This document shows positions 7,874-35,629 of a stretch of DNA of 64,000 bases, piece by piece. The position numbers and the translations under genes are program-made. Every line of letters starts with the position of its first letter. Position 1 is the stretch's first letter. Below the pieces are notes generated by a model that did no database searches, had not been told where the DNA came from, and saw nothing but the letters and a program-made list of their open reading frames with translations. Source of the DNA: an uncultured bacterium. Its GTDB lineage: Bacteria; Acidobacteriota; Aminicenantia; Aminicenantales; UBA4085. The stretch lies in NCBI GenBank assembly GCA_937868205.1, contig CALMMC010000049.1, forward strand, positions 423 to 64,422. The letters are read 5' to 3'.

Positions 7874-7918
7874 CCGGAAATATCGCGGGAAAAACGATTT
7901 CGGGGGGAAAGGCCTCCG

Positions 7919-9136: not shown

Positions 9137-10411
9137 ATGAAAGAGGAGAACGCCATGGCCCTGGACCTCGAACGCGTCCGTCATCAATTCCCCGCCCTCG
9201 CCGGCAACGCCGTTTTTCTGGACAACCCCGGGGGCACCCAGGTCGTCAAGAACTGTCTCGACCGGATGCTCGACTATCTCATCGAGGCCAACGCCAACCA
9301 CGACGGCGCCTTCAAAACGAGCCGCGAGTCGGACGCCCTGGCCGCCCGCGCCCGCCAGGCCGCGGCCGATTTTCTCAACGCCCGCCCCGAAGAAGTCGTC
9401 TTTGGGGCGAACATGACGACCCTGACCTTTCATCTTTCGCGCTCCCTCGCTCCGCGCCTCGGCCCCGGCGATTCCCTCGTCGTCACCCGTCTTGACCACG
9501 ACGCCAACATTTCGCCCTGGCTTCTCCTGGCCCGCGACCGGGGGGCCGAAATCCTCTGGGTCGATTTCCATCCCGAAGACGGCACCCTCGACTTGGCGGA
9601 TCTCGACCGGGCCTTGGAGAAAAAACCCAAGCTCATCGCCGTCAGCTACGCCAGCAACGCCCTCGGGACGATCAATCCCGTGGCCGATATCGCCGCCCGG
9701 GCCCGGGCGGCCGGGGCGCTTGTCTTCGTCGACGCCGTCCATTACGCCCCCCACGGGCCGATCGACGCGGCCGCCCTCGGCTGCGACTTCCTGGCCTGCT
9801 CGGCGTACAAGTTCTTCGGTCCCCATCTCGGCCTTCTCTATGGGCGGCGGGAACTCCTGGAGGAGCTTCCGGCCTATAAAGTCCGGCCGGCCGACGACAG
9901 GGTCCCTTTCCGATTCGAGACGGGGACGCCCAACTTCGAGGCGCTCGCCGGCCTGCTCGGGACGATCGAGTATCTCGAGGAGCTCGGAACACGCTTCGGC
10001 GAGGATCCCGAGGCCGAGCCGGCCGACGATCCGTCCGGACGGAAGCGGAAGCTCCGCCGGGCGGCGGCGGCCGTCCGGGCCCATGAGCGGACGCTGGCCG
10101 CGGCCATGTTCGAAACGCTCCAAGCGATCCCCTCGATGAAAATCTTCGGGCTCACGGACCCGGCCCGCTTCGACGAACGCGTCGCGACCTTCTCATTCCG
10201 CCTGGGGGACGTCCCCCCGCGGCGGATCGCCGAGGAGCTGGACCGCGACGGGATCTATGCCTGGGACGGGCACTACTATGCCCTCGAGACGGTTCGGCGC
10301 CTCGGCCTCGAGGACAAGGGCGGCATGCTCCGGGTCGGGGCCGTCCATTACAACACTCTCGAAGACATCGCCCGGCTCGGCCGGTCGCTGGCCCGGATCG
10401 CCAAGGCCTGA
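9137..10411 (+). CDS. Class V aminotransferase, cysteine desulfurase-like (SufS/CsdA-related)
   Basis: Fold-type I PLP enzyme with the SAYKFFGPHLG lysine motif; overall similarity to cysteine desulfurase family proteins. Confidence 0.8.
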   Translation: MKEENAMALDLERVRHQFPALAGNAVFLDNPGGTQVVKNCLDRMLDYLIEANANHDGAFKTSRESDALAARARQAAADFLNARPEEVVFGANMTTLTFHLSRSLAPRLGPGDSLVVTRLDHDANISPWLLLARDRGAEILWVDFHPEDGTLDLADLDRALEKKPKLIAVSYASNALGTINPVADIAARARAAGALVFVDAVHYAPHGPIDAAALGCDFLACSAYKFFGPHLGLLYGRRELLEELPAYKVRPADDRVPFRFETGTPNFEALAGLLGTIEYLEELGTRFGEDPEAEPADDPSGRKRKLRRAAAAVRAHERTLAAAMFETLQAIPSMKIFGLTDPARFDERVATFSFRLGDVPPRRIAEELDRDGIYAWDGHYYALETVRRLGLEDKGGMLRVGAVHYNTLEDIARLGRSLARIAKA

Positions 10412-10548
10412 ATTTTTTTCGGGACGTCGGCGGAAGAATCATCAATCCGCCGCGGATCTGGTCAGAGAGCGATTCGCCCCGGCGGCCGAAACGTCCGGCG
10501 CCGGATGCTTCCGTGCAGATGTGGTGAACCCGGAACAGGTCTCCCGGA

Positions 10549-10690
10549 TCAGGTCTTTTCGGCCAGCCGGCGAAAGCTTCGATTGAGGGCGATGAACCAC
10601 AGTGACCAGCCGAGGTGCATGATTCTCTGCTTGGCGCCGATCCAGGGGCCGAGAGTATCCGGCATATACGCCGTTCGTTGTGGTAAAATA
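10549..10690 (-). pseudogene. C-terminal remnant of a native high-GC DUF998 gene
   Basis: Reverse-strand translation FILPQRTAYMPDTLGPWIGAKQRIMHLGWSLWFIALNRSFRRLAEKT* aligns with the C-terminus of the adjacent intact DUF998 ORF (…ILPGYFGLKQRFLYAGWTVWSVYLSFRFLKLSAK*). It is cut off by an in-frame stop exactly at the AT-rich junction. Confidence 0.55.
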
Positions 10691-10705
10691 AATTAAAAGA
10701 AGACT

Positions 10706-11281
10706 ATGAGAATAAAATATTTATTAATTTTTGGATTGTTAAGTCCGTTGGTTTTTTGGATTACGACAATTCTTTGCGGATTACGACTTGAAGGATATAA
10801 TCATTTTACCTGGTTGGTAAGTGAATTAGGAGCATTAGGGACCAGGACACAGGTTATTTTTACATTCGGATTAGTTTTAAGTTCCATCCTTAATTTTGTT
10901 TTCGTTATTGGTTCATTTAAATTTTGTAAAATGAGGCAATTGAATCTGATTCCTGTGATATTCCTATTGTTTTATTCTTTCCTTGCGGGACCAGCTCTAT
11001 TTCCAATGCCTTTGAGACTGCATGGTATTGTTGGAATCCCTTTTCCTCTGATAATGTTTGCTCCGATCGTGAGCCTCATTTTCTGGAGAAAGAAGGAGTA
11101 TCAGGTAAAAATAAGAGTGATAGCCATCATTAGTTTCCTGATTATGCTATTGGGATTTTTAATTTATTTTCCGAATATCCTGCCTGGATATTTCGGATTA
11201 AAACAAAGATTTTTATATGCAGGCTGGACTGTTTGGTCTGTTTATTTGAGCTTCAGGTTTTTGAAATTAAGTGCGAAATAA
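10706..11281 (+). CDS. DUF998-family membrane protein encoded in a roughly 600-bp low-G+C cassette
   Basis: A 191-aa multi-TM ORF. By eye the segment is about one-third G+C against flanks in the high 60s, with sharp compositional boundaries near 10690 and 11290. Confidence 0.75.
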   Translation: MRIKYLLIFGLLSPLVFWITTILCGLRLEGYNHFTWLVSELGALGTRTQVIFTFGLVLSSILNFVFVIGSFKFCKMRQLNLIPVIFLLFYSFLAGPALFPMPLRLHGIVGIPFPLIMFAPIVSLIFWRKKEYQVKIRVIAIISFLIMLLGFLIYFPNILPGYFGLKQRFLYAGWTVWSVYLSFRFLKLSAK

Positions 11282-11384
11282 CTCAAGTGAACTGGAGGAC
11301 ATCCCCGATCTGGCATTTACCCTGCGGGCTGACCGGGGTGTCGGAATGACCCCTCCCGATTAATATTGCGTTGGTGTCAGGTCT

Positions 11385-11506
11385 TACATTAAACATTTGG
11401 AACCCAGGTGGCTGTAGTCGCCCAGCCGGGCGGCGCAGAGAAATATCGTTCCCCAAAACAACAGGACCGCCAGGATGCCTGCATCGAGCCATCGGCTTTT
11501 ATTCAT
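11385..11506 (-). pseudogene. N-terminal remnant of the same native DUF998 gene
   Basis: Reverse-strand translation MNKSRWLDAGILAVLLFWGTIFLCAARLGDYSHLGSKCLM*. The core LLFWGTIFLCAARLGDYSHL parallels LVFWITTILCGLRLEGYNHF of the intact gene; it is truncated after about 40 codons. Confidence 0.55.
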
Positions 11507-11556
11507 GGGGGCGATATTCCCTTGAACGTTCATTCGGAAACAAGACGAGCGAGATC

Positions 11557-12123
11557 CTATTTCCTTTGGCTCCACAGCCGGTCGCGGGTCTTGACCCGGA
11601 AATATCCCCGGCCGACGGCCCGGATGTCCTCCACCGAATAGAACGCCTCGGGCCGGCATTGACGGACCGTCTCGATGACCCGGGGCAGATTGACCCGGTC
11701 GAGGACCAAGAAGATGATCTTGACCTTCCCGCTTTTTCCCTCTCCGTCGATGCAGGTCACGCCGTGCTTTTCCTCCCGGAGGCGTTCGACGAGCGCGTCC
11801 GCATTGTTCGGAGTGATGACCCGGAGAAGGACGTTCCCCACGGCCAGTTTTTCCTCGATCCGCATGCCGACGTAGGTCCCCATGGCGAAGCCGGCCCCGT
11901 AGGCCAGGTAATAAAAAGGATTGGTCAGGTTCTGCATGATCTGGGTGATGGCCACCAGCCAGATAATAACCTCGAAAAAACCCAGAAGCGGGGCTAGAAG
12001 CCGCCGGCCCTTCGAGATGAAGATGATCCGCATCGTCTGGAGGCTGACGTCGAAGATGCGGGCCGTGAAAATCAGCAGGGGAAGAATCACCCATTTGAAG
12101 AGGTCGAAATTCAGGAATTCCAT
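11557..12123 (-). CDS. UPF0316/DUF2179-family membrane protein (YitT-like)
   Basis: MEFLNFDLFKWVILPLLIFTARIFDVSLQTMRIIFISKG… matches the DUF2179 pattern. The start is chosen at MEFLNF; the longer ORF-track version carries an R-rich upstream extension. Confidence 0.65.
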   Translation of the reverse strand: MEFLNFDLFKWVILPLLIFTARIFDVSLQTMRIIFISKGRRLLAPLLGFFEVIIWLVAITQIMQNLTNPFYYLAYGAGFAMGTYVGMRIEEKLAVGNVLLRVITPNNADALVERLREEKHGVTCIDGEGKSGKVKIIFLVLDRVNLPRVIETVRQCRPEAFYSVEDIRAVGRGYFRVKTRDRLWSQRK

Positions 12124-12137
12124 CGCCGCCTTCCTCC

Positions 12138-12515
12138 TCACTCCGCGGGCCGGGTTCCGGCGGCCGCGGACCATTTTGCCCGGAGGGCCGGGTCGTCCAG
12201 CCTCTTGACCAGCACGCCCCCGACGACCGGCCGCGCTTGGAAGACCGTCTTTTTTCCTGTGTGCGCTTCCGGAGAGATGACGTCGACGGCCAAGAGGCAA
12301 CCGTCGCTGAATTTCTCCTTGGGGGCCGGAAGCGGCGTTCCGGCCAGGTCGGCCGCCGACCGGATGCTGAAGCAGGGATCATGGGCGATCCGCGGCTCGG
12401 CCGGCGGCCGGAAGGGCGTCGTTTCCGCGGCCGAGGCGGCGGGAAAAAGAGCGGGCGTAATCAGGAAGATGCGGCAAAAGCGGGCGATCATGACGTCCTC
12501 CGGGGAATATTTCAA
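12138..12515 (-). CDS. Hypothetical secreted protein (signal peptide), immediately upstream of the UPF0316 gene
   Basis: The ORF has an N-terminal hydrophobic signal-like segment MIARFCRIFLITPALFPAASAAE. There is no recognisable domain; weakly supported. Confidence 0.35.
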   Translation of the reverse strand: MKYSPEDVMIARFCRIFLITPALFPAASAAETTPFRPPAEPRIAHDPCFSIRSAADLAGTPLPAPKEKFSDGCLLAVDVISPEAHTGKKTVFQARPVVGGVLVKRLDDPALRAKWSAAAGTRPAE

Positions 12516-12571
12516 CTGAGTCTATTTTATGTTTCGCGTGAGTATTTCTCAATCCCGGCGCATGGCCGGTC

Positions 12572-12650
12572 AATTCGGAACCTGTTTATCCATTTCCATA
12601 TTTCAACAGGTTCAGATTTAAATCGGGAAATGGATAAACAGGTTCAGATT
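12572..12650. repeat. REP inverted doublet (forward 12572-12597, inverted 12626-12650)
   Basis: aattcggaacctgtttatccatttcc … ggaaatggataaacaggttcagatt. The inverted copy overlaps the PiT stop codon. Confidence 0.8.
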
Positions 12651-13644
12651 AAAATAGGATGCCGAAGAACTCGTACAAAAGGCCGGCGCAGAGGGCGCTC
12701 ATCGGGATCGTCAAAATCCAAGCCCAGACGATCTTGATCGTCACCTGCCACTTGACCGCGGCCGCGTTCTTGGCCGCTCCGACGCCGGCCACGGCCCCGG
12801 TGATGACATGGGTCGTCGAGACGGGAACCCCCATGTGAGTGGCTGTGAAGATGGAGACGGCGCTGGCCGCCTCGGCGCAGAATCCGTCGATGGGTTTAAG
12901 CTTGACGATCCGCTGGCCCATCGTCTTGACGATCCGCCATCCCCCCGAAAGCGTGCCCAAGGCGATCGCCGTGTGAGCCGAGAGGACGATCCACAAGGGG
13001 ATGTGGAATTCCTTCATGTGTCCCGAGGTGAACATCAGGCCGGCGATGAGACCCATCGTCTTCTGGGCGTCGTTTCCGCCGTGGCCGAGGCTATAGAGAG
13101 CGGCCGAGGCGAATTGCAGGCGCTTGGCCCAGACATCGACGACGGCCATCGGCCGCTTGTGAACGATCCAGGTCGTCACGACCTTGAGGACGATCCCGAA
13201 GATCATCCCGAGCAAAGGGGCCAGGACGATAAACACCGCGATTTTCACCCAGCCGGAAACGATGACGACCTTGAAGCCGGCCTTGGCCACAGCCGCCCCG
13301 AGATATCCGCCCATCAGGGAGTGGGAGGAGCTCGAGGGCAGTCCCCAGTACCAGGTCAGGATGTTCCAGGAGACGGCTCCCAGAAGCCCGCAGAGAATGA
13401 CCATCGGGTCGACGACGGAAATGTCGATCAAGCCGGTTCCGATGGTTTTAGCCACGGCCGTGCCGAAGATCAGAAAGGCCACGAAATTGAAGAACGCGGC
13501 CCAGATGACGGCTTGCTTGGGGCTGAGCACCCGCGTTGAGACGATCGTCGCGACCGAGTTGGCCGCGTCGTGCAGGCCGTTGGTGAAATCAAAAATGAGG
13601 GCGATGGCGATGATGAAGGCGATGAAACCGAAGCTGGACTCCAT
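12649..13644 (-). CDS. Inorganic phosphate transporter, PiT family
   Basis: The GNDAQKTMG / GLHDAANS signature pair of PHO4/PiT. The start is chosen at MESSFGF. Confidence 0.85.
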   Translation of the reverse strand: MESSFGFIAFIIAIALIFDFTNGLHDAANSVATIVSTRVLSPKQAVIWAAFFNFVAFLIFGTAVAKTIGTGLIDISVVDPMVILCGLLGAVSWNILTWYWGLPSSSSHSLMGGYLGAAVAKAGFKVVIVSGWVKIAVFIVLAPLLGMIFGIVLKVVTTWIVHKRPMAVVDVWAKRLQFASAALYSLGHGGNDAQKTMGLIAGLMFTSGHMKEFHIPLWIVLSAHTAIALGTLSGGWRIVKTMGQRIVKLKPIDGFCAEAASAVSIFTATHMGVPVSTTHVITGAVAGVGAAKNAAAVKWQVTIKIVWAWILTIPMSALCAGLLYEFFGILF

Positions 13645-26463: not shown

Positions 26464-27102
26464 ATGAGAGGACGATGGATGCAGGCGGCGGCCTGGCTTC
26501 TTCTATCAGCCGCCGGAGCGGCCCAAACCCCGCCGGCGTCCTCCGCGCCTCCCGGCCCGCTCGAGCGGCCGGTCCTGTTGATCATCGATGTCCAGAACTT
26601 CTATTTCGAGGGCGGAACGCTCCCCCTGGCCGGAAGCGTCAAGGCCTCGCTTCAAGCAAAGACGCTTTTAGAGTCGTTCCGGGCGAAAAACCTCCCGGTG
26701 ATCCATGTCGCCCATATGCCCAAGGAAAAACCGGCCGCCCCCGACCCGCTGTACTCTTTCCATCCCAACGTCGCCCCGCGGCCCGGCGAGGCTGTCGTCA
26801 TCAAACACTACGCCGACGCCTTCCGGGAAACGGATCTCCTGGACCGTCTCCGGGCGCTGCGGGCCGAAACCCTCGTCATCTGCGGGATGCAGACGCACAT
26901 GTGCGTCGAAGCCGCCGTCCGGCATGCCGCCGACACCGGCTTCCGGGTCGTCCTGGCCGAGGATGCCTGCGCGACGCGCGACTTGAAATACAAGCGCACG
27001 ACGGTCCCGGCCGCCTCGGTCCAGGCGGCCGTCCTGGCGGCCCTGAACGGCACGTACGCGAAAATCGCCGCGGCCGCCGAGATCGCGGCCGCCCTCAAGT
27101 GA
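26464..27102 (+). CDS. Isochorismatase-family cysteine hydrolase, secreted
   Basis: LLIIDVQN…, the Asp-Lys-Cys triad context (…VICGMQTHMCVE…), and a signal peptide. Confidence 0.8.
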   Translation: MRGRWMQAAAWLLLSAAGAAQTPPASSAPPGPLERPVLLIIDVQNFYFEGGTLPLAGSVKASLQAKTLLESFRAKNLPVIHVAHMPKEKPAAPDPLYSFHPNVAPRPGEAVVIKHYADAFRETDLLDRLRALRAETLVICGMQTHMCVEAAVRHAADTGFRVVLAEDACATRDLKYKRTTVPAASVQAAVLAALNGTYAKIAAAAEIAAALK

Positions 27103-27106
27103 CCGG

Positions 27107-28357
27107 ATGAAGCCCCCGGCGAAGCTTTTCGGCTGGCTGCGCGACGCCCCGCCCGCCTCGCGCCGGTCGCTGCTGGCCGCCTCGCTGGGGTGGATGCTCG
27201 ATTCCTTCGATGTCATGCTCTACTCCATGGTCCTGGCTTACTTGATGAAGGACCTGGGCATGAGCAAGGCCACGGCCGGATTGATGGGCTCGATCACCCT
27301 GGTCGCCTCGGCCGCCGGCGGGGTGATTTTCGGCCTCGTGGCCGACCGGATGGGCCGGACGCTCGCCCTCCGGGCTAGCATCTTGATCTACTCCATTTTC
27401 ACCGCGGCCTGCGGCCTGGCCTCGTCCGTTCCGATGCTGGCCGTTTTCCGGGTGTTTCTCGGCCTGGGCATGGGCGGGGAATGGGCCAGCGGGGCGGCTC
27501 TCGTTTCCGAAACCTGGCCGGCCGAGCACCGGGGGAAAGCCCTCGGCGTCATGCAGAGCTCCTGGGCCGTCGGCTACGCCCTGGCCGCGCTGGTCACGGC
27601 CGTCATCTACCCTTGGCTCGGCTGGCGGGCCGTCTTTTTCTTCGGGGTTCTCCCGGCCCTCCTGGTGTTCTGGATTCAGACGAAGGTCGAAGAGCCGGCC
27701 ATCTGGGTGGAGCACCGGGAGCGGGAAGCGAAGGCCGAGACCGCGCGGCCGTCCATCCGCTCCATCATCCGGGGCCGCCTCCTGGGAACGACCGTCCTGA
27801 TCACGATCATGAACGCGGCCACTCTGTTCGGCTGGTGGGGGCTCAACCTCTGGATCCCCGGCTACCTCTCTCTTTCCCGGGACCAGGGCGGAATCGGCCT
27901 GTCTCCCCGGCACATGTCGTCCCTGGTCATCTTCATGCAGGCCGGGATGTTCCTGGGCTACCTGACGTACGGGTACATCAGCGACCGGCTCGGGCGGAAG
28001 CGGACGTACATCGCCTTCCTCCTCTGCGCCGCCGTCCTCATCATCGCCTACTCGGGGGTTCGGACGCCGACAGCCCTGTTGTTCCTGGGCCCCTTCGTGG
28101 CCTTCTTCGGGACGGGCTACTTTTCCGGATTCGGCGCCCTTTCGGCCGAGCTCTACCCGACGTCCATCCGGGCGACGCTCCAGGGATTCACTTACAATAT
28201 CGGCCGAGTCGTCTCGGCCGTGGCCCCCTTGGTCATCGGCTCGCTGGCCCAGACGAAGGGCTTCGGAACGGCCTTCCTGCTGGTCGCCGCGGCCTTCCTC
28301 TTCGCCGCGGCCATGTGGATCTGGATTCCCGAAACGCGCGGCCGGGCGCTGGCTTAG
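27107..28357 (+). CDS. MFS transporter
   Basis: 12-TM architecture with a GxxxDRxGRR-like motif (GLVADRMGRT). Confidence 0.85.
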   Translation: MKPPAKLFGWLRDAPPASRRSLLAASLGWMLDSFDVMLYSMVLAYLMKDLGMSKATAGLMGSITLVASAAGGVIFGLVADRMGRTLALRASILIYSIFTAACGLASSVPMLAVFRVFLGLGMGGEWASGAALVSETWPAEHRGKALGVMQSSWAVGYALAALVTAVIYPWLGWRAVFFFGVLPALLVFWIQTKVEEPAIWVEHREREAKAETARPSIRSIIRGRLLGTTVLITIMNAATLFGWWGLNLWIPGYLSLSRDQGGIGLSPRHMSSLVIFMQAGMFLGYLTYGYISDRLGRKRTYIAFLLCAAVLIIAYSGVRTPTALLFLGPFVAFFGTGYFSGFGALSAELYPTSIRATLQGFTYNIGRVVSAVAPLVIGSLAQTKGFGTAFLLVAAAFLFAAAMWIWIPETRGRALA

Positions 28358-28424
28358 GCCGCCCTTTTTGTGCGTTCTAATTCGTTCTCCTCAACCAAGA
28401 AAAGAGGACCGGCGATGGAAAACC

Positions 28425-28452
28425 GCCCGGAAAGGCGGGCCTTTTCCCTCGA
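28425..28452 (+). terminator. Possible weak intrinsic terminator after the MFS gene
   Basis: ccgcccg-gaaagg-cgggc, then cttttcc; short stem and a poor T-tract. Confidence 0.3.
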
Positions 28453-28603
28453 AGGCCGTTTTTTTACGTTCAAGTCTGATTCGTTACATTCCAGGGCCCT
28501 GGGAAAACTCCCCGGCAGACGGCTTTTCTCCGTTATTTCTCGGGAAGGCCGATTGGCACGGCGCTTGCTGTTTCAATCTTGGAAGAAAAGGAATAATCCG
28601 AAC

Positions 28604-30070
28604 ATGCGCGGAACGAGATCTCTCGCCGCCGTCCTGATCGGCCTGTCCCTCGTCCTTGCGCCTCTCCGGGGGCGGGCCGAGACCGATCCCCTCAAGGAGG
28701 CCTGGAACCGCCTGCCCGCGGCCGAGAAGCATTTCCAGAAAGGACTGCGGGAATTCCAGGCCGGCCGGTACGCCGCGGCCGCGGGGGCGTTCCGGAAAAC
28801 CATCGATGCCCTCCCCCGGCACGCCTATGCCTCCTACTACCTGGCCAACATCGCCTATGTCCAGGGGGACTTTCAAAACGCCTTGGCCGACATGGAGCGG
28901 TCGCTTCGAGACCTGGACTTCATGCGGGATCTCAACACTTATGCCGTCGCCAAGCAAAGTCAGACGATCGATTCGTACCGGCAGATGCTCGACTCTGAAT
29001 GGGAGAACGCCCCCGACTGCCGGTCCCAGCGCGAAATCGAATCTCTGACCGACGAGATCGCCACTGAGAAAAACAAGCTGGAGGTCCGGACGGCCGCCGA
29101 GGACGCCTCCCGTTTGTCCCAGCGCGCCCATTTCCTTTATTTCCTGGGCAATATCCGCTTCCAGCTGAAGCAATTCCCCGAGGCCTTGGACGCTTACCAA
29201 AAAGCGCTCGACCTCAATCCCCGCCACGTCAGCGCGGTCAACAACGCGGCCGCGGTCCGGTACATGGCCGGCGACCCGCAGGGCGCCCTGGACCAGCTGG
29301 ACGAGGGAGCCCGGGCGGGCGTGGGCGGCCATCTGAACTTGAAGCTCAAGCATCTCATCCTCGAAGCCCTGGGTCGGCCGACGGAAGGCGTTCTCCAAGA
29401 GGATCTCTCGGCCGCCGGTCCCGGGGCGGACCTGGGCGTCGTCCGGTTCGCTCTCGCCTTCAACGGCGGAGACCCGCTTTTACCGCCCCTCTACGAGAAC
29501 GGTTACGTCGTGTTCAGCCGGACGTCCCGGCAGGCGATCCTCGTCGACCCGGGGGTCGAGGATCCCCGCATCGCCGAGTTGATCGCCCGGAACCATCTCG
29601 AGGTCAAAGCCGTCTTCAACACGCACAACCACGACGACCACGCGGCCGCCGACAAGGTTTACGCCGCCCTCTACAAAGCCCCGGTCTATCTTTCTCCCAA
29701 GGAAGAGAAACGGACGGACCGCCCGGCGGTCCGTCCCATCGGCGACGGCGAAACCATCTCTTTCGAAGGATTCACGGTCCAGGCCCTGCTCACGCCCGGC
29801 CACACGGCCGGAAGCACGTGCTTTTTAATCGGGGGATATCTCTTCTCGGGCGACACCCTGCTGGCGGATGATATCGGGTCTCCGGCCGGCGGCAACGACC
29901 GGCAGCGGGCGGACGCCCGGAGCGGCCTGGTCCGGGTCATCCGAGAGAAGCTTCTGTCCCTGGACGGCCGGACGCGCGTCTGTCCCGGCCACGGAAAGAC
30001 GACGACCATCGCCGCCGAAGCGGCCGGCAATCCATTTTTAAAGAATCAGCCCGCCGATCTGAATCGCTGA
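28604..30070 (+). CDS. Secreted TPR-repeat protein fused to an MBL-fold metallo-hydrolase domain
   Basis: Signal peptide (MRGTRSLAAVLIGLSLVLAPL), TPR-like helical repeats, then HNHDDHAAAD…TPGHTAGS metallo-beta-lactamase motifs. Confidence 0.7.
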   Translation: MRGTRSLAAVLIGLSLVLAPLRGRAETDPLKEAWNRLPAAEKHFQKGLREFQAGRYAAAAGAFRKTIDALPRHAYASYYLANIAYVQGDFQNALADMERSLRDLDFMRDLNTYAVAKQSQTIDSYRQMLDSEWENAPDCRSQREIESLTDEIATEKNKLEVRTAAEDASRLSQRAHFLYFLGNIRFQLKQFPEALDAYQKALDLNPRHVSAVNNAAAVRYMAGDPQGALDQLDEGARAGVGGHLNLKLKHLILEALGRPTEGVLQEDLSAAGPGADLGVVRFALAFNGGDPLLPPLYENGYVVFSRTSRQAILVDPGVEDPRIAELIARNHLEVKAVFNTHNHDDHAAADKVYAALYKAPVYLSPKEEKRTDRPAVRPIGDGETISFEGFTVQALLTPGHTAGSTCFLIGGYLFSGDTLLADDIGSPAGGNDRQRADARSGLVRVIREKLLSLDGRTRVCPGHGKTTTIAAEAAGNPFLKNQPADLNR

Positions 30071-30972
30071 TAACGCTCTTCCAGGCGTTCCCGGTCCGGC
30101 CGCTCCTCCATCCGCCGCGGGAGATTCAGGATCTTCCCTTGAAATCCCTGCAACCCGTGGAGGAGCATGGGGCCGTCCTTTTCCTGGAGAACGTCATCCC
30201 TGATTTCCACGTAATAATCCGGTCGAATCCCTAAAATATCGCTGTCGAAAGCTTTATGATGAATCGCGCACATGGCCAGACCGTTATTCACGGCCGGGAT
30301 ACCGCTTGGATGCTTGTCTTCCAAGATATGCGCCGCTTCAAGAAGCTCATGATGCCTCAACCGGCATATCGCGCACGAATACTGATAGGCTCTTAGGACG
30401 CGGGCGCGAAAGGCGTTTTGATGAATCCTCCGCTGGATCTCGACCGTGATATAACGCCGATGGAAATCTTCCACGGAAGGAGGATTTGATCTTTCTTTTA
30501 CGATCGCCTTCTGGTCATCGGCGATGACGCTGAAAAACAGCTTTTCCGGGTCATCGCCGACAATGAATACCGGCCAAATCGGTTCATACCATCCCGGTTC
30601 CACTCCATAAAAATAAATGAGCGGAATTCCTCTATTCATCGCCTTCCGCAACCCCGCATTATCCGGATGCGAGGGATTGTGCCCGCGGTATCGATAGAGA
30701 ATGATCCCGGTTTCCGTCGACCGGTCGTCGTAGGGACGCGGTTTTCCCGGGATCTCCGGAACCGTCAAGATGCTGATCGGGATTTCAGGGAGAATTTTTG
30801 GCTTGAAGATTCCCTGCGGTCCGACAAGGGGAACGCGGACACCCTCAAAATTGAATCCCTTCGCGAGGACGTTCCGCGGGATCGCCCGGCCGTAGTGACG
30901 AAGTTGTTCGATTAAAAAGGCGGAAGCCGCCTGGCGGACTTTTCGATCGAGATCAATCTCTCTATAGATCAT
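30046..30972 (-). CDS. HNH endonuclease (HNH_2-type) with an N-terminal SRA-like/PUA-superfamily reader domain; putative modification-dependent (type IV) restriction enzyme
   Basis: C-terminal YSCAICRLRHHELLEAAHILE…NNGLAMCAIHHKAFD. N-terminal YDDRSTETGIILYRYRGHNPSHPDNAGLRKAMNRGIPLIYFYG…PVFIV resembles the SRA YDD/Y.G/N.AL/PV.V pattern. The gene lies in a visibly lower-G+C segment. Confidence 0.6.
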   Translation of the reverse strand: MIYREIDLDRKVRQAASAFLIEQLRHYGRAIPRNVLAKGFNFEGVRVPLVGPQGIFKPKILPEIPISILTVPEIPGKPRPYDDRSTETGIILYRYRGHNPSHPDNAGLRKAMNRGIPLIYFYGVEPGWYEPIWPVFIVGDDPEKLFFSVIADDQKAIVKERSNPPSVEDFHRRYITVEIQRRIHQNAFRARVLRAYQYSCAICRLRHHELLEAAHILEDKHPSGIPAVNNGLAMCAIHHKAFDSDILGIRPDYYVEIRDDVLQEKDGPMLLHGLQGFQGKILNLPRRMEERPDRERLEERYQRFRSAG

Positions 30973-31928
30973 CCGAGAAACCTGTTTTCATTATGCCAGA
31001 GAAGCATCTGTCTTGAGGGGCGATCTTCCTCTGTTTGCGGATAATGATTAAGGCGCCGGCCGTGGAACGGATAATAAGACCGCCCGTTGGCGAATTCTTC
31101 CTTCAATCGCCGGCTGATTTCAATCCGGAATTCCGGAGTCACGGTGATATATCCCCGGTCGAAAAGGCGGTGGAAATCGCTTCGGAGAAGCAACCCGTTG
31201 CTCACTTCATGCGGACCCTCTTCCCCATACGGCTTGATATGAGCGGCTTCCAGGGCGGGCAAGGAATGCTCTTCCGTAATGGCGCACGAACGGGCATAAG
31301 CGTCGGTCACGGCCACCTGAAACGCCCCTTGACCGAGTCGAGGCCGGATGACGGATTCCTTGCCGTAACGGGCTCTTTCCTCCTCCACCCGCCGTGTATC
31401 CAGATAAAGATCGGACAGGCCTTGCCTGGCCAAGCCTTCCTGGACGTTTTTCCAGATAAACCGGCCGGCGTCCGTGCCCAGCTCATACCCCTTGGCTTTT
31501 CCCCGGACGATCGACGCTTTCCATTCGGGCGCCGGAAACCACATCGATTCCTCGAAGAAAAACGGCTGGGTCAGAATGATGCATCCGATTTTGAAATCCT
31601 CGTGAGGATCGTTTTCAATTCTTCGGTAAGGGAGCAATCTCCGCCGCATGTCCGAAAAGGAAGAGGCCCCGTTTCGGATATCGAAGGCTTCCCAAGCCAG
31701 GCTGATCGGCAGAGTCGAAAAAGATGAAAAAACGCCTCCCCCGGCGATCACATCCCTCTGCCGCGTTCTTTGACTCCGATGGAGCTTGAAAAGGAACAAA
31801 TCTCCTTTTCCGATCGCCCGGAAGGAGGCGCTTGAAGACGGCTGCCAGAAGTTGACTTCGTCAATGCCGCGAATTCCGCGTAAAAAATCAAACCAGTTTT
31901 GATCCGTAATCCCGGCATAAATCCTCAT
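30969..31928 (-). CDS. HNH endonuclease (HNH_2-type) with an N-terminal EVE/ASCH-like PUA-superfamily domain; second putative type IV restriction nuclease
   Basis: C-terminal YARSCAITEEHSLPALEAAHIKPYGEEGPHEVSNGLLLRSDFHRLFD. N-terminal MRIYAGITDQNWFDFL…EVNFWQP…IGKGDLFLFKLHRS…VIAGGGVF resembles EVE domains. There is a 4-nt overlap with the downstream HNH gene; an alternative start lies at 31967. Confidence 0.6.
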   Translation of the reverse strand: MRIYAGITDQNWFDFLRGIRGIDEVNFWQPSSSASFRAIGKGDLFLFKLHRSQRTRQRDVIAGGGVFSSFSTLPISLAWEAFDIRNGASSFSDMRRRLLPYRRIENDPHEDFKIGCIILTQPFFFEESMWFPAPEWKASIVRGKAKGYELGTDAGRFIWKNVQEGLARQGLSDLYLDTRRVEEERARYGKESVIRPRLGQGAFQVAVTDAYARSCAITEEHSLPALEAAHIKPYGEEGPHEVSNGLLLRSDFHRLFDRGYITVTPEFRIEISRRLKEEFANGRSYYPFHGRRLNHYPQTEEDRPSRQMLLWHNENRFLG

Positions 31929-32059
31929 CGAACGTGATTCCCTGAACCGTCGGCGGCAATATAACAAGGCCGGGCGGGGATGGCAAGGCCCCCTTTCTCC
32001 GCGCGGCGAGTAAACGCCGGATGGCGCCCGAACGGTTACAGGGTGAGAAAGGAGCTCAT

Positions 32060-32579
32060 CATGAAAAAACCCGTATTGATCGCAGCCGTGGCGGCCGCGG
32101 TTCTTTTAACCGCCTCTCCCCTCCTCCGGGGATCGGAAACCGGCCCCGAAGCGACCGTCGCCAAGATCCGGGACCGGATTCTGGCTCCGGATTTCAAGCC
32201 TGACGGCATCGAGAAGGACCTGATTGAAATCCTGAACGTCTCTCTCGCGATCCTGCCTGAAAAGGAATACGCCGAGGAATTCCGGTCCAAGATCGCCTGG
32301 GTCAAGGATTCGTTCGCGGACGAGCATTTGTTCGCCGATAAAATCCGCCAGTATCTCGGAATCGCCTATGCCCTCGTTTCCGACGGGACGAGCTGGCGTC
32401 TCCCCGAAGAGCTCCAGCGTCCCTATCCGGGCGAACCGGCGTCCATCAAACGGGCGACGGCGGTCTGCGGCCGGCTTCTCGAATCGGCCTTGGCTGAAAT
32501 GAAAGCCGGAAACAACGAAAAAGCGGCCGGCTGCCTTATCGGCTTCGTCCTCCTCGTCATCACCCCCATCGAAGCCTGA
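32060..32579 (+). CDS. Hypothetical secreted protein
   Basis: Signal peptide MKKPVLIAAVAAAVLLTASPLL; no recognisable domain. Confidence 0.4.
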
Positions 32580-32663
32580 GACGGGAACGGGGAGGCGGTC
32601 GGTACCGGCAGGATTGATTTCCCGGTCCGCCTCAAATACATTGGGGAAGTCAAGCCGGCCGAA

Positions 32664-33212
32664 ATGGGAAATCCCGCGTTCGATTACGATTCGCTGATCA
32701 AACCGCTGGAGCCCCGAATGATGCGGACGATCTGGCGGATCCTCCGGGAGAAGCCGGCGGCCGAGGACGCTCTCCAGGACGCCCTGGCCGTCATCTGGAA
32801 AAAGCGCGGGACGGTGGCCCGGCACCCCAATCCCCCGGCGCTCATCCTCCGCATCACGATTGCCTCGGCCGTGGATAGTCTGCGGAAGACGCGGCGGCGC
32901 CTCCGCCACGAGGTCCCCGGCCTTCCGAAAGACCGGAGAGCGGACGATTCCGCCGACCCGGCCGCGGGAAAGGCGGAAGAACGCCGGTTCAGACCGGCGA
33001 TTCTCCAAGCCGTCGGACGCCTCCCCAAACGCCAGGCGGAAGCGGTCCTCCTGCGGATCATCGAGGAACTTTCCTACGAGGAGATCGCCCGGGCCATGGG
33101 CTGCACCGAGGCGACGGCCCGCGTCCACGTCATGCGGGGGAAAGCCGCCCTGGCCCGGCGGCTGGCCCGTTTCCGTCCGGATCCGGCCCGTCAACCCGGG
33201 CTGAAGGAATAA
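32664..33212 (+). CDS. RNA polymerase sigma-70 factor, ECF subfamily
   Basis: Region 2 (…EDALQDALAVIWKK…) and region 4 HTH (…LSYEEIARAMGCTEATARVHVMRG…). Confidence 0.85.
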   Translation: MGNPAFDYDSLIKPLEPRMMRTIWRILREKPAAEDALQDALAVIWKKRGTVARHPNPPALILRITIASAVDSLRKTRRRLRHEVPGLPKDRRADDSADPAAGKAEERRFRPAILQAVGRLPKRQAEAVLLRIIEELSYEEIARAMGCTEATARVHVMRGKAALARRLARFRPDPARQPGLKE

Positions 33213-33228
33213 GACAAGAGAGGCTGTC

Positions 33229-33585
33229 ATGAGGGCAAAACGATTTGAAGACGCGGATCTGGAGCGCCTCCTGAGGGACGCTCTCCCTGACGACCTCCCG
33301 GACGAAGCCGCCGCCGGGATGCGGGACCGGATCGCCGCCTTTCGGACCGCGGCGGCGAAGGAAGAACGGGGTCCGGCGGTCTCCTTCATCCTCGCCCGGA
33401 AGGGAGCCTGGGCCGTCTTGGCGTTGGCCCTGTTGATCGCCGGCGCTCTTCTCCAGGGCTTCCAATCCCCCAGCCCGCTGGCAAAAAAAATCGCGTTCCT
33501 CAAAAACAAGCTATCGAATTCGGAGCCCGCCCGTCCGGCCGATATCGACGGGGGAATCCGGATCCCCGGCCTGAAGGAGGGTTGA
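33229..33585 (+). CDS. Putative membrane-anchored anti-sigma factor
   Basis: A small protein with a single TM segment, directly downstream of the ECF sigma and overlapping (ATGA) the next gene. Confidence 0.4.
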   Translation: MRAKRFEDADLERLLRDALPDDLPDEAAAGMRDRIAAFRTAAAKEERGPAVSFILARKGAWAVLALALLIAGALLQGFQSPSPLAKKIAFLKNKLSNSEPARPADIDGGIRIPGLKEG

Positions 33586-34595
33586 CCATGAACGAACACG
33601 ACAAGAACCGGGTCCGCGGCCGGGCCGCCGTCCGGTGGTTGATCGCCGCGGCTTTCATCGCGGGCGTCGCCCTCTCGGGGCTTTTCGCCGGGATGGCGAA
33701 CCGGGCGGGTTTATTTTTCCTCTTCCTGGGGACGGCCGCCTCGGTCCTGACGGGTTTTTCCCGGTCCGAAATCCGGGAGGCGTTCCGGCTCGCGGCCGGA
33801 AAATCCGGAACGCCGGAAGCCCGGCGAGAGGCCGCGTCCTTCTGGGAGGCGGCCGCCCGCAACGCCTGGGCTCTCGGCGTCATGGGAAGCCTGCTGAACT
33901 TCACCGTCGTTCTCGGCGGCGGAAGCGGCGGGATCGCCGATATCAGCGACCGGATGATCCAATCGTTCATTGTCACTTTTTACGGCCTCGTCCTGGCCGT
34001 TCTCTTGCTGGTCCCGGCTATGAAGATCTCAGGTCTTGCCGGAAACGGGGAGCCCGGCCCGGGTCCGAGGCCGTCCCGCGGCGGGCCCTTTCTCTTCGAA
34101 CGGGTGACGGGCTATGTCCTCTTCGCCGTTGTTCTCGGACTGACCGTCCTGTCCCTCGTTCGAAGCGTCCCGCCCGGCGGCCCGCTGTCCGCGGCCGAAG
34201 TCATGCTCCATGGCCCGGCGGCCCTCTTCATTTTCGGCGGATCGATCGCCCTGGCCCTTTTCCTGGGAACCGGAAGAGGGGCCTGGACGTTCGGATTCGG
34301 AATGACGGGCCTCGCCGCCCTTTTTCTCGGCTTGATTCAAACGATGTTCGGATTCGTCCACACGGACATCAAGGAGATCTCCGCGGCCATCGCCTTCATC
34401 ATTTCGTCTTCCCTCTATGCTCTTCTCGGTCTGGTTCTCGTCGCCGCCCCCCTGGAAGACCGCAAGCGGCCGGACGGGGGGGATCAGCCGGGGAGGCTCA
34501 GCCGAGTCCTGTGGATGGCTTTCCCGTTCGTGGCCTTCATCTTCCTCGTCCTGAGCTGGATCTTGGTCATCACGCCAATGAAAAGAACCGGCTGA
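33582..34595 (+). CDS. Integral membrane protein with two MotA/TolQ/ExbB-like segments
   Basis: Two repeats of a hydrophobic G-rich block followed by polar-loop TM pairs (…GSLLNFTVVLGGGSGGIADISDRMIQSFIVTFYGLVLAV… and …GLAALFLGLIQTMFGFVHTDIKEISAAIAFIISSSLYALLGLV…). The family assignment is tentative. Confidence 0.35.
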   Translation: MTMNEHDKNRVRGRAAVRWLIAAAFIAGVALSGLFAGMANRAGLFFLFLGTAASVLTGFSRSEIREAFRLAAGKSGTPEARREAASFWEAAARNAWALGVMGSLLNFTVVLGGGSGGIADISDRMIQSFIVTFYGLVLAVLLLVPAMKISGLAGNGEPGPGPRPSRGGPFLFERVTGYVLFAVVLGLTVLSLVRSVPPGGPLSAAEVMLHGPAALFIFGGSIALALFLGTGRGAWTFGFGMTGLAALFLGLIQTMFGFVHTDIKEISAAIAFIISSSLYALLGLVLVAAPLEDRKRPDGGDQPGRLSRVLWMAFPFVAFIFLVLSWILVITPMKRTG

Positions 34596-34687
34596 GCCGC
34601 GTTCCTCCTCCGAAAGCCGCGGCCGTTTGATTGATTTTCCCCGGCCGTTGATATAATCATATCCCATCCCCCGAGGAGGCTCCCGCC

Positions 34688-35629
34688 ATGAAGCGCCGCG
34701 ACTTCGTCTCCAAGGGCCTCGGCACCGCCGCGGCCGTTTCCCTTCCCTTCCTCGGAACGGCCGGACGGCCTCTTTCCGCCGGCCGCGAGTCCGCCCCGCC
34801 CCCCGACGGCGGAACCAGCCGCTTCAAGCTCGGTTACGCCCCGCCCTTCGGCCTGTTCAAGGCCCACGCCGGGGACGACCCGGCCGCCCAAATCCGCTTC
34901 TGCGCCGACGAGGGCTTCACGGCGATGTTCGACAACGGCCTCATGGGCCGGCCGGCCGCCCAGCAGGAGCTGATCTCCCGGGAGCTGGCCGCCCGCGGCA
35001 TGAAGCTCGGCCCGTTCGTCCTTTATTCCGATTTCGGGGTCAAGTCGTTCGTCCTCCGGGACAAGGACGTCCGGGCGATGCTCGTCGAACGGATGAAAAA
35101 GGGCGTGGAGACGATGAAGCGGACCGGCTGCGCCCAAGCCCTCGTCGTTCCGGGGCGCTTCGACGAAAGCCTCGCCTGGGAATACCAGACGGCCAACGTC
35201 GTCGACAACCTCCGGGCCTGCCTGGACGTCTGCCGCCCGGCCGGCCTCGTCCTCGTGCTCGAGCCCCTCAATCCCAAGGACCACCCGGGCCTGTTCCTGA
35301 CCAGGATTCCCCAAGCCTATGCCCTCTGCCGGGCGGTCGACGATCCCCACTGCAAGATCCTCGACGACCTGTATCATCAGCAGATCACCGAGGGCAACCT
35401 CATCCCCAATATCGAGGCCGCCTGGAGCGAGATCGCCGCTTTCCACGTCGGCGACAGCCCCGGCCGTAAGGAGCCGACGACCGGGGAGATCAACTACCGG
35501 AACATCTTCAAATGGATTCACGGCAAGGGATACCAGGGTGTCCTTTGCCTGGAGCACGGCCTCAGCCGCCCCGGCAAGGAAGGCGAGCGGGCGGTCATCG
35601 AGGCCTACCGGGCCTGCGACGCGTTCTAA
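34688..35629 (+). CDS. Tat-exported xylose-isomerase-like TIM-barrel protein (sugar phosphate isomerase/epimerase, hydroxypyruvate isomerase-like)
   Basis: Twin-arginine signal MKRRDFVSKGLGTAAAV; AP endonuclease 2/xylose isomerase-like barrel motifs (…VLEPLN…, …LCLEHG…). Confidence 0.8.
   Translation: MKRRDFVSKGLGTAAAVSLPFLGTAGRPLSAGRESAPPPDGGTSRFKLGYAPPFGLFKAHAGDDPAAQIRFCADEGFTAMFDNGLMGRPAAQQELISRELAARGMKLGPFVLYSDFGVKSFVLRDKDVRAMLVERMKKGVETMKRTGCAQALVVPGRFDESLAWEYQTANVVDNLRACLDVCRPAGLVLVLEPLNPKDHPGLFLTRIPQAYALCRAVDDPHCKILDDLYHQQITEGNLIPNIEAAWSEIAAFHVGDSPGRKEPTTGEINYRNIFKWIHGKGYQGVLCLEHGLSRPGKEGERAVIEAYRACDAF

What the first reader, a model, noticed from the sequence alone, without database searches (positions are those of the whole stretch)
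30046..31967. Low-GC two-gene island encoding tandem HNH nucleases with different putative modified-base reader domains
Two overlapping, co-oriented genes sit in a stretch whose G+C is visibly lower than the flanks. Both end in an HNH_2-type nuclease motif (C.IC…EAAHI…NGL..C..HH..FD). The downstream protein has an N-terminal SRA-like segment (YDD…YRYRG…DNAGL…PLIYF…PVFIV). The upstream one has an EVE/ASCH-like PUA-superfamily segment (ITDQNWF…EVNFW…GKGDLFLFKLH…VIAGGGVF). Fusions of PUA-superfamily readers to HNH nucleases are characteristic of type IV restriction enzymes that cut modified (5mC, 5hmC or glucosylated) phage DNA. Two such enzymes with different reader domains in one operon would give broader modification coverage. 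The cassette is wedged between a convergently overlapping MBL-fold gene and an unrelated hypothetical gene, consistent with horizontal acquisition.
Basis: partly seen in the sequence, partly recalled or inferred. Interest (0 to 1): 0.65.

Follow-up and report, generated by a model that had tools for sequence, protein, structure and literature searches.

The report
Paired modified-DNA-sensing HNH restriction enzymes
Two back-to-back genes in an Acidobacteria/Aminicenantes-like genome each join a different predicted "modified-base reader" domain to an HNH DNA-cutting domain, so they are most likely ordinary anti-phage type IV restriction enzymes; the modestly new point is that this particular pair recurs in many unrelated bacteria.

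Summary
Two co-oriented minus-strand genes (30046-30972, 308 aa; 30969-31928, 319 aa) overlap by ATGA and lie in a G+C dip (0.54 against 0.625). Two corrections apply. The upstream gene starts at 31928, not 31967. Only the downstream protein has the Cys-rich zinc motif.

Both carry Pfam HNH_2 with conserved catalytic residues. No Pfam reader-domain model hits either N-terminal domain. AlphaFold models matched by Foldseek place the downstream one with SRA domains (TagI, SUVH5, KRYPTONITE, ScoMcrA) and the upstream one with EVE/ASCH domains (VcaM4I E = 1.8e-7). Activity and specificity are untested.

The insertion is old. Two related genomes carry the cassette between the same orthologous flanking genes, with the same G+C dip.

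The pair recurs. About a quarter to a third of each family's members have the other next to them, always co-oriented, in both gene orders, and in at least five separate clades. Some loci add a third HNH gene with another sensor. I found no paper describing this.

Verdict: a new variant of a known kind, of moderate to low interest.

The parts
31958..31986 (-). Sigma-70-like promoter for the two-gene operon (TTGCCA, 17 nt spacer, TG-extended TATATT)
   Evidence: 10 of 12 matches. It ends 30 nt upstream of the ATG at 31928. This is a consensus match only, not proof of function.
30969..31928 (-). Upstream gene (geneA), 319 aa: PUA-superfamily (EVE/ASCH-like) reader, helical linker and HNH_2 nuclease; predicted type IV restriction endonuclease
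   Evidence: ORF. Start codon. P0121 is 100% identical and 319 aa. Pfam HNH_2 E = 5.5e-14. Foldseek best hit is VcaM4I (6yex), E = 1.8e-7.
31479..31928 (-). geneA N-terminal reader domain (about aa 1-150), PUA-like beta-barrel, EVE/ASCH clade
   Evidence: AlphaFold2 pLDDT is about 65-87 per 10-residue block across aa 1-140. Foldseek hits: ZmASCH 5y6b E = 4e-3 (probability 1.0), af2351 2kku, PH1033 2hd9, McrB-N 6n0s/6p0g, THYN1 3eop, YTH domains. Invariant aromatic-rich motifs are EVNFWQP, GDxFLFK, IAGGG, W79, F82 and QPFF. No Pfam model matches.
31344..31478 (-). geneA inter-domain helical linker (about aa 151-195)
   Evidence: Predicted helices 153-168 and 175-187, with low confidence at 176-211. 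In VcaM4I the equivalent linker helix (148-178) auto-inhibits the nuclease (PMC7897488). The same role here is inferred, not shown.
30969..31343 (-). geneA C-terminal HNH_2 nuclease domain without Cys pairs (VcaM4I type); Pfam core at 31140-31286
   Evidence: Pfam HNH_2 covers aa 215-263. Alignment to VcaM4I gives E = 8.3e-8 with the family profile. H230 aligns with catalytic H224 of VcaM4I, D257 with D254 and H253 with D250. N244 and D257 are invariant and H253 is at least 90% conserved.
30969..30972 (-). ATGA stop/start overlap coupling the two genes
   Evidence: the sequence reads ...ggATGAtc.... L001/L006 show the same 4-bp overlap (6001-6960 and 6957-7886). In L053/L059, where the order is reversed, the stop-to-stop ORFs (4298-6004 and 6001-6915) also overlap by 4 bp; the true start codons were not checked.
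30046..30972 (-). Downstream gene (geneB), 308 aa: SRA-like reader, linker helix and zinc-finger HNH_2 nuclease; predicted type IV restriction endonuclease
   Evidence: ORF. P0001 is 100% identical and named 'HNH endonuclease [Acidobacteria bacterium]'. Pfam HNH_2 E = 7.7e-10. Foldseek best hit is TagI (6ghs), E = 1.2e-4.
30508..30972 (-). geneB N-terminal reader domain (about aa 1-155): N-terminal helix plus SRA-like beta-barrel
   Evidence: pLDDT is 79-94 per 10-residue block, except the loop at 70-90. The top 20 Foldseek PDB hits are all SRA or SRA-like proteins. Y81, D83, Y93, Y95, N105 and P117 are invariant. Two Tyr 12 residues apart plus an Asp is the TagI pocket pattern (Tyr55, Tyr67, Asp58; PMC6212794). 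The domain alone defines 1,491 clusters at 50% identity. Pfam SAD_SRA does not match.
30379..30507 (-). geneB inter-domain linker helix (about aa 156-198)
   Evidence: Predicted long helix 166-198.
30046..30378 (-). geneB C-terminal HNH_2 nuclease domain with a CCCH zinc site (TagI/ScoA3IV type); Pfam core at 30226-30375
   Evidence: Pfam covers aa 200-249. C200, C203, H215, N230, C235, H238 and H239 are invariant and D243 is at least 90% conserved. In the alignment to TagI, H215 falls on the first His, H239 on the last His and D243 on the metal-binding Asp258.

Best explanation
The two genes form one operon. [quoted passage not shown]

Each protein is predicted to work like the solved enzymes VcaM4I and TagI. 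The steps are:
1. [quoted passage not shown]
2. A helical linker keeps the nuclease in check until modified DNA is bound.
3. The C-terminal HNH (beta-beta-alpha-metal) domains of a homodimer cut both strands nearby.

The upstream enzyme has an EVE/ASCH-like reader and an HNH domain without a zinc site. The downstream enzyme has an SRA-like reader and a CCCH zinc-finger HNH domain. The two readers are unrelated in sequence, so they presumably recognise different modifications or sequence contexts. Together they would then restrict a wider range of modified phage or plasmid DNA.

Shown here: gene structure, HNH_2 membership, conserved catalytic residues, fold-level reader assignments, and recurrent genomic linkage.

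Inferred: base flipping, auto-inhibition, homodimer formation, modification dependence, the identity of the modifications, and the defence role.
For: - Both proteins match HNH_2.
- Catalytic His/Asn/His-Asp residues are invariant or nearly invariant in 50-sequence family alignments. They align with residues validated experimentally in VcaM4I and TagI.
- Predicted folds: geneB matches TagI, SUVH5, KRYPTONITE and ScoMcrA SRA domains. geneA matches VcaM4I, then ASCH and EVE domains.
- The conserved Y81/D83/Y93 pattern in geneB fits the SRA pocket signature.
- The N-terminal-reader, linker, C-terminal-HNH order is the one described for known PUA-HNH enzymes (PMC6765204; PMC7897488).
- None of the eight flanking genes scanned is a methyltransferase. 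A crude motif screen of the whole window found none either. This fits modification-dependent rather than modification-protected restriction (PMC6765204).
- The two reader domains show no profile similarity to each other (hhalign probability 0.1%).
- The pair recurs. Ten of 80 geneA loci have geneB directly adjacent and 17 of 80 have it within 6 kb. Twenty-three of 80 geneB loci have geneA nearby, and 15 of the 39 with at least 1 kb on both sides. All pairs are co-oriented, apart from one extra opposite-strand geneA-type match in L097.
- In cultured hosts the relatives sit among integrases and transposases, as mobile defence genes often do.
Against: - No reader-domain HMM recognises either N-terminal domain, and no sequence search of the PDB does.
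- The fold evidence comes from one program run on medium-confidence models (pLDDT 74.6 and 68.9). TM-scores are low (about 0.4-0.55 relative to the target), and for geneB the isolated SRA hits have E = 0.02-0.1.
- In this window the flanks are housekeeping genes, not a defence island.
- The geneA family is unusually well conserved for a defence gene (mean column identity 75% among the 50 aligned).
- Roughly three quarters of the sampled geneA loci and two thirds of the geneB loci lack the partner, so the pairing is not required for function.
- No activity data exist for either family.
Confidence: 0.65

Rival explanations
1. The two proteins form one heteromeric enzyme. Their homologous HNH domains pair as an A:B heterodimer, so a single nuclease carries two different readers. 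Cleavage would then depend on two kinds of mark, either both together or either one.
For: - VcaM4I and TagI both dimerise through their HNH domains.
- The two genes are translationally coupled by an ATGA overlap.
- The adjacency recurs in at least five clades and in both gene orders.
- The C-terminal halves of the two proteins are homologous, at about 34% identity.
Against: - Most members of each family occur without the other, so each must be able to work alone.
- The two HNH domains belong to different subtypes, one with a CCCH zinc site and one without.
- Some loci separate the two genes by 0.7-4.4 kb, or pair geneA with a different HNH gene instead.
- No multimer prediction could be run.
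Confidence: 0.1
2. One or both proteins have no defence role. The PUA-like domain might bind a modified or damaged nucleotide in the cell's own DNA or RNA, and the HNH domain might act in repair, RNA processing or genome maintenance.
For: - ASCH, EVE and YTH domains also bind RNA, and they appear among the fold matches.
- The geneA family is highly conserved.
- The cassette lies among housekeeping genes and has been kept at one locus across species-level divergence.
- Slowly evolving EVE domains tend to occur in non-defence contexts (PMC7641849).
Against: - The best structural matches for the full-length proteins are two proven restriction enzymes with the same domain order.
- The distribution is patchy across phyla and includes mobile contexts on plasmids.
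- The genes cluster with further sensor-HNH genes, including a phosphorothioate-sensor type.
- The copy in L018 appears to be decaying.
Confidence: 0.1
3. The HNH nucleases are sequence-specific or non-specific toxins, or homing-type selfish elements. On this view the N-terminal domains are ordinary DNA-binding or regulatory domains and not readers of modified bases.
For:
- Some HNH proteins from the same published screen were toxic or acted as nicking enzymes without modification dependence, namely ScoA3II and ScoA3III (PMC6765204).
- G+C is atypical.
Against: - The conserved aromatic and acidic residues sit where reader pockets are expected.
- There is no intein, intron or target-gene context.
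- The locus is stable and syntenic across related genomes.
- Hits on viral contigs are few.
Confidence: 0.08

Closest known systems
VcaM4I / TspA15I / CmeDI group of EVE-HNH type IV restriction endonucleases (PDB 6yex; PMC7897488, PMC6765204)
   Same: geneA has the same order of parts: N-terminal PUA-superfamily reader, helical linker, C-terminal HNH_2. Its HNH domain lacks Cys pairs, like VcaM4I. The catalytic His and Asp residues align (H230 with H224, D257 with D254). VcaM4I is the best structural match (E = 1.8e-7) and the best PDB sequence match.
   Different: Sequence similarity is confined to the HNH half. Pfam EVE does not recognise the reader domain, and its fold matches ASCH domains as well as EVE domains. 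One metal-ligand position is swapped (geneA D251/H253 against VcaM4I H248/D250; read). Specificity is unknown.
TagI / ScoA3IV (Sco5333) / MsiJI group of SRA-HNH type IV restriction endonucleases (PDB 6ghs; PMC6212794, PMC4333417)
   Same: geneB has the same architecture. It has a zinc-finger-type HNH_2 domain with the downstream metal-binding Asp (D243, aligned with Asp258 of TagI). TagI is its best structural match (E = 1.2e-4). It has a conserved Tyr...Asp...Tyr pattern with the two Tyr 12 residues apart, as in the TagI pocket (Tyr55, Asp58, Tyr67).
   Different: Pfam SAD_SRA does not match any of 50 family members. geneB has an extra N-terminal helix (aa 3-27) and a much shorter segment between the second Tyr and the N-x-G-L helix than in TagI (read). 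The residue-by-residue pocket correspondence is unverified.
ScoA3V (Sco5330), a PUA-like-HNH enzyme with 6mA-stimulated nicking, and its genomic proximity to ScoA3IV (Sco5333) in Streptomyces coelicolor (PMC6765204)
   Same: This is a PUA-like-HNH gene of a clade separate from EVE, lying a few genes from an SRA-HNH gene. That is the nearest published analogue of the two-reader arrangement. The proximity is inferred from the locus-tag numbers.
   Different: In S. coelicolor the two genes are not adjacent or overlapping, and a predicted adenine methyltransferase (Sco5331) is mentioned between them. I could not obtain the ScoA3V sequence, so whether geneA belongs to its group is untested. The paper reports close ScoA3V homologues only in Actinomycetales.
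ScoMcrA and the SBD-HNH phosphorothioate-dependent endonucleases (PDB 5zmm; NCBIfam NF045808; PMC7461809)
   Same: They share the HNH_2 C-terminal module. NF045808 matches the C-terminal halves of both proteins. ScoMcrA combines two sensors, SBD and SRA, with one nuclease. In some related loci an SBD-HNH-like gene is the third member of the array (L040, L050).
   Different: ScoMcrA places two sensors in one polypeptide. Here two sensors sit on two separate nucleases in one operon. Neither window protein has an SBD, since the NF045808 match covers only model positions 152-284.

Membership tests
HNH_2 nucleases (Pfam PF13391) | Match to the family HMM above the gathering score | tested here: met
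   geneB scores 38.9 bits and geneA 52.2 bits, against a cutoff of 21. All 50 of 50 members of each family alignment match.
HNH / beta-beta-alpha-metal nucleases | Catalytic His (general base), structural Asn, and His/Asp metal ligands conserved | tested here: met
   geneB: H215, N230 and H239 are invariant and D243 is at least 90% conserved. C200, C203, C235 and H238 form the zinc site. geneA: H230, N244 and D257 are invariant and H253 is at least 90% conserved. These residues align with H224/D250/D254 of VcaM4I and with the first and last His and Asp258 of TagI.
SRA (SAD_SRA / YDG) domain family: geneB N-terminal domain | Recognised by the sequence family model (Pfam PF02182) | tested here: not met
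   No hit at E <= 1 for the window protein. No hit at E <= 10 for any of 50 family members. Sequence and profile searches of the PDB give no SRA hit.
SRA domain family: geneB N-terminal domain | SRA-type beta-barrel fold | tested here: met
   The 20 best Foldseek PDB matches are all SRA or SRA-like proteins, with probabilities up to 0.95. E-values are modest (1.2e-4 for TagI, including its HNH domain; 0.017-0.1 for isolated SRA domains). TM relative to the target is about 0.4. The model has pLDDT 79-94 per 10-residue block in this domain outside one loop. The evidence comes from a single method.
SRA domain family: geneB N-terminal domain | Flipped-base pocket: two aromatic walls about 12 residues apart plus a carboxylate | tested here: inconclusive
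   Y81, D83, Y93 and Y95 are invariant, and the pattern matches Tyr55/Asp58/Tyr67 of TagI. No residue-level structural superposition was available, so the correspondence is unproven.
EVE (PF01878), ASCH (PF04266), YTH and PUA families: geneA N-terminal domain | Recognised by a sequence family model | tested here: not met
   No such hit at E <= 1, nor at E <= 10 in any of 50 members. The N-terminal domain alone against PDB sequences gives only antibody noise.
PUA superfamily (EVE/ASCH/YTH clade): geneA N-terminal domain | PUA-like beta-barrel fold | tested here: met
   Foldseek hits: VcaM4I E = 1.8e-7; ZmASCH E = 4e-3 (probability 1.0, TM to target 0.54); af2351, PH1033, PH0355, archaeal McrB-N, THYN1, YTHDC1/2 and Mmi1. 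Model pLDDT is about 65-87 per 10-residue block in this domain. The data do not separate EVE from ASCH.
Type IV (modification-dependent) restriction endonucleases | Cleavage requires or strongly prefers modified DNA | not testable with these tools
   This needs biochemistry or phage and plasmid restriction assays.
Type IV (modification-dependent) restriction endonucleases | No cognate DNA methyltransferase next to the nuclease gene | tested here: met
   Eight flanking genes within about 3.6 kb on either side are isochorismatase, MFS, TPR-MBL, a hypothetical protein, an ECF sigma factor, a second protein with no Pfam hit (possibly an anti-sigma factor, my guess from its position), MotA/ExbB and AP_endonuc_2. 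A crude motif screen of the whole window flagged one ORF, which has no Pfam match. The rest of the genome is unseen.
VcaM4I/TagI-type enzymes | Homodimer formed through the HNH domains | not tested

The most novel reading that the evidence does not exclude
The recurrent geneA-geneB pair may be a genuine two-sensor restriction system and not two neighbours. The two proteins would co-assemble through their homologous HNH domains into a heterodimer, or otherwise cooperate on the same DNA. Cleavage would then integrate two different DNA marks. More broadly, tandem arrays of HNH_2 genes with swapped sensor domains (EVE/ASCH-like, SRA-like, SBD-like and a fourth unannotated type) would form a modular 'sensor cassette' locus that diversifies by exchanging readers on a common nuclease scaffold.
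Probability: 0.1. Interest if true: 0.6.

Novelty: new variant of a known kind. Interest (0 to 1): 0.3.

Why it matters
If the reading is right, it adds two large, unannotated reader-domain families to the set of modification-dependent restriction enzymes. The geneB-type domain alone defines about 1,500 clusters at 50% identity. Such enzymes are useful reagents for epigenetic mapping, because the known ones cut 5mC or 5hmC DNA. Readers this divergent could have new specificities, such as 4mC, 6mA or hypermodified bases.

The recurrent co-oriented pairing with a second, unrelated reader suggests selection for stacking sensors against phages that modify their DNA differently. This could be tested directly in culturable carriers or in E. 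coli.

It does not change how type IV restriction is understood. A specialist would find the proteins expected and the pairing mildly interesting.

Tried and rejected
1. Sequence-level identification of the reader domains failed throughout.
- Pfam at E <= 1 on the window proteins gave nothing.
- Pfam at E <= 10 on 50 members of each family gave nothing.
- NCBIfam and PADLOC matched only the HNH half.
- phmmer and profile hmmsearch against PDB sequences, with full-length proteins and with the N-terminal domains alone, gave nothing useful. The only 'hits' for the geneA domain were antibody chains, which are noise.

3. An exhaustive HMMER search with the geneB N-terminal domain was meant to reach remote relatives with a recognisable SRA domain. 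It returned 1,491 clusters, but the 150 listed were still 40-86% identical. Ten with odd lengths or domain positions mostly showed only HNH_2; one showed only a cytidylate-kinase-like domain and two showed no Pfam domain. No bridge to canonical SRA was found.

4. Recent horizontal acquisition was rejected. There are no flanking repeats, integrase or tRNA, and synteny with L001/L006 and L018 shows inheritance within the clade.

5. A recent tandem duplication as the origin of the pair was rejected. The HNH halves are only about 34% identical and belong to different subtypes, and the N-terminal domains are unrelated.

6. The 122-aa ORF after the Deinococcus geneA homologue is not a geneB remnant.

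7. No sequences were held in the supplement of PMC6765204. The relation of geneA to ScoA3V could therefore not be tested.

8. The ORF at 59940-62762, flagged by the methyltransferase motif screen, has no Pfam match and is probably not a methyltransferase.

Full report
**What is there**

Two minus-strand ORFs occupy 30046..30972 (308 aa, here geneB) and 30969..31967.
- The upstream ORF (geneA) is listed from a TTG at 31967. All close homologues are 317-319 aa and begin at the equivalent of the ATG at 31928.
- A sigma-70-like promoter (TTGCCA, 17 nt, TG-TATATT; 31986..31958) overlaps that TTG and ends 30 nt before the ATG. The gene is therefore 30969..31928, 319 aa.
- The geneA stop and the geneB start overlap as ATGA, which is typical of a co-translated operon.
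- The 3' end of geneB overlaps the end of a TPR + metallo-beta-lactamase gene by 25 bp, convergently.

**Composition**

The cassette has G+C of 0.541, against 0.625 for the window. That is the 1.8th percentile of same-size windows. GC3 is 0.61-0.62, against 0.73-0.90 in eight neighbouring genes. The dip is real, but it is not the lowest in the window. A patch at about 10.1-12.7 kb is lower.

**Nuclease halves**

Pfam HNH_2 matches both proteins (E = 7.7e-10 and 5.7e-14). NCBIfam's phosphorothioate-restriction model and a PADLOC HNH model match only the C-terminal halves.

In 50-sequence family alignments the catalytic residues are conserved as follows.
- geneB: H215, N230 and H239 are invariant and D243 is at least 90% conserved. 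A CCCH zinc site (C200, C203, C235, H238) is also invariant.
- geneA: H230, N244 and D257 are invariant and H253 is at least 90% conserved. There are no Cys pairs.

HMMER alignments place these residues on experimentally validated positions.
- In VcaM4I these are H224, D250 and D254 (PMC7897488).
- In TagI these are the first and last His and Asp258 (PMC6212794).

The two HNH domains are thus of two different subtypes and are about 34% identical to each other.

**Reader halves**

No sequence method recognises either N-terminal domain.

AlphaFold2 models built from the family alignments have medium overall confidence (pLDDT 74.6 and 68.9). Confidence is better in the N-terminal domains.

Foldseek against the PDB gives these results.
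- geneB: TagI (SRA-HNH; E = 1.2e-4) is the best match. Nineteen further SRA or SRA-like entries follow: SUVH5, KRYPTONITE, SUVH6, ScoMcrA and SauUSI.
- geneA: VcaM4I (EVE-HNH; E = 1.8e-7) is the best match. ASCH domains follow (ZmASCH, E = 4e-3, probability 1.0), then EVE proteins, archaeal McrB N-terminal domains and YTH domains.

geneB has invariant Y81, D83, Y93 and Y95. Two tyrosines 12 residues apart plus an Asp is the pocket pattern of TagI (Tyr55, Asp58, Tyr67). I could not superpose structures, so the residue correspondence is a lead and not a result.

The two readers show no profile similarity to each other (hhalign probability 0.1%).

**Context and history**

The flanks are housekeeping genes: isochorismatase, an MFS transporter, TPR-MBL, a hypothetical secreted protein, an ECF sigma factor, MotA/ExbB and a xylose-isomerase-like TIM barrel. 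There is no integrase, tRNA, methyltransferase or bounding repeat.

Two other species-level genomes of the same clade carry the cassette between the same orthologues. These are L001/L006 (GCA_964411395.1) and L018 (an Aminicenantes MAG).

| Feature | Value in L001/L006 and L018 |
|---|---|
| AP_endonuc_2 orthologue | 77-80% identical |
| Isochorismatase orthologue | 73-82% identical |
| geneA | 73-77% identical |
| geneB (L001/L006) | 66% identical |
| Cassette G+C | 0.54 and 0.50, against 0.62 in the flanks |

The insertion therefore predates the split of these lineages and has been inherited vertically since. In L018 the genes are broken by frameshifts, which reflects either decay or assembly indels.

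Elsewhere the families are patchy across phyla. They are rare on viral contigs. In cultured hosts they lie among integrases and transposases on large plasmids. That pattern fits mobile defence genes.

**The pair recurs**

| Sample | Loci with the partner gene |
|---|---|
| 80 genomes chosen for a geneA relative | 17 have a geneB-type gene within 6 kb; 10 are directly adjacent |
| 80 metagenome loci chosen for a geneB relative | 23 have a geneA-type domain nearby |
| The 39 of those with at least 1 kb on both sides | 15 have a geneA-type domain nearby |

- Adjacent pairs are always co-oriented. Both orders occur: 19 with geneA first and 12 with geneB first.
- On a geneA tree the paired state appears in at least five separate clades. 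Each clade has its own fixed order.
- Some loci hold three HNH_2 genes. The third has an SBD-like (phosphorothioate-sensor) N-terminal domain (L040, L050). In L013, L014 and L004 the HNH_2 gene that follows geneA has another unannotated N-terminal domain, which is homologous to that of L073.
- The linkage is therefore frequent and repeatedly assembled, but not obligate. Most members of either family stand alone (for example L002).

**Mechanism**

The best-supported reading (confidence about 0.65) is two independent homodimeric type IV restriction endonucleases of the VcaM4I and TagI kinds. They would be co-expressed from one promoter, and each would read a different DNA modification by base flipping and cut nearby.

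Base flipping, linker auto-inhibition, dimerisation, modification dependence and the target marks are all inferred from the solved relatives and from the published screen of PUA-HNH fusions (PMC6765204).

Three rivals remain: an A:B heterodimer (about 0.1), a non-defence role (about 0.1), and modification-independent nucleases (about 0.08).

**Comparison with what is known**

PUA-superfamily-HNH fusions are an established class of modification-dependent enzymes. The published groups are EVE-HNH, SRA-HNH and the separate ScoA3V clade. In *S. coelicolor*, ScoA3V (Sco5330) and ScoA3IV (Sco5333) lie a few genes apart.

What differs here:
- Both readers fall outside the Pfam reader families.
- The two genes form a tight operon.
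- That operon recurs widely.

None of the papers I could search mentions such tandem pairs. The library is incomplete and REBASE could not be consulted.

**Verdict**

This is a new variant of a known kind. Interest is 0.3.

Noticed in passing
L040:5527-6501, L050:1614-2570; L013:1010-1996, L014:1422-2411, L004:6968-7957, L073:10658-11620(-): Relatives of geneA are sometimes followed by other HNH_2 genes with different N-terminal domains. One type matches the phosphorothioate-sensing restriction model NF045808 over its full length (128 bits, below the cutoff of 180). Another type, of 320-329 aa, has an unannotated domain with motifs GIYKP...NRSLF...PVLVIV...YRILGLA. That domain is homologous between L013/L014/L004 and L073 (hhalign probability 96.5%). 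Together these look like arrays of sensor-swapped HNH nucleases.
   Followed up: partly
L018:6001-7923: At the syntenic locus of a related Aminicenantes MAG, the geneB copy is split over three reading frames and geneA has a frameshifted C-terminal tail. This is either a decaying pseudogene pair or indel errors in the assembly.
   Followed up: partly
window 10100-12700: A second stretch has G+C lower than the cassette (0.51-0.52). It encodes small, very hydrophobic proteins, for example 10706-11281 (191 aa) and 11557-12300 on the minus strand. It is unrelated to the finding.
   Followed up: partly
window 26464-35629 compared with L001:3616-9060: The interval between the orthologous AP_endonuc_2 and isochorismatase genes differs in content between genomes. 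The window has TPR-MBL, MFS, an ECF sigma factor, a protein with no Pfam hit that may be an anti-sigma factor, and MotA/ExbB. L001 has an NHL-repeat protein instead. Only the HNH pair is shared, so this is a variable region around a retained cassette.
   Followed up: partly
L041:430-1233: A geneA relative (55% identity over residues 1-278) lies on a 2.8-kb contig assigned to a Promethearchaeota (Asgard archaeon) MAG. This is either cross-domain transfer or a binning error.
   Followed up: no
P0376 (388 aa); P0356 (297 aa): The geneB-type N-terminal domain appears once next to a cytidylate-kinase-like domain (PF13189) in place of HNH. It appears once downstream of an HNH_2 core in the same predicted protein. 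These could be true fusions or merged gene calls of tandem genes.
   Followed up: no
window 59940-62762 (+): A 940-aa stop-to-stop ORF has no Pfam match. It was flagged only because it contains NPPY-like and FxGxG strings far apart. It may be a spurious frame in G+C-rich DNA or an unknown protein.
   Followed up: partly
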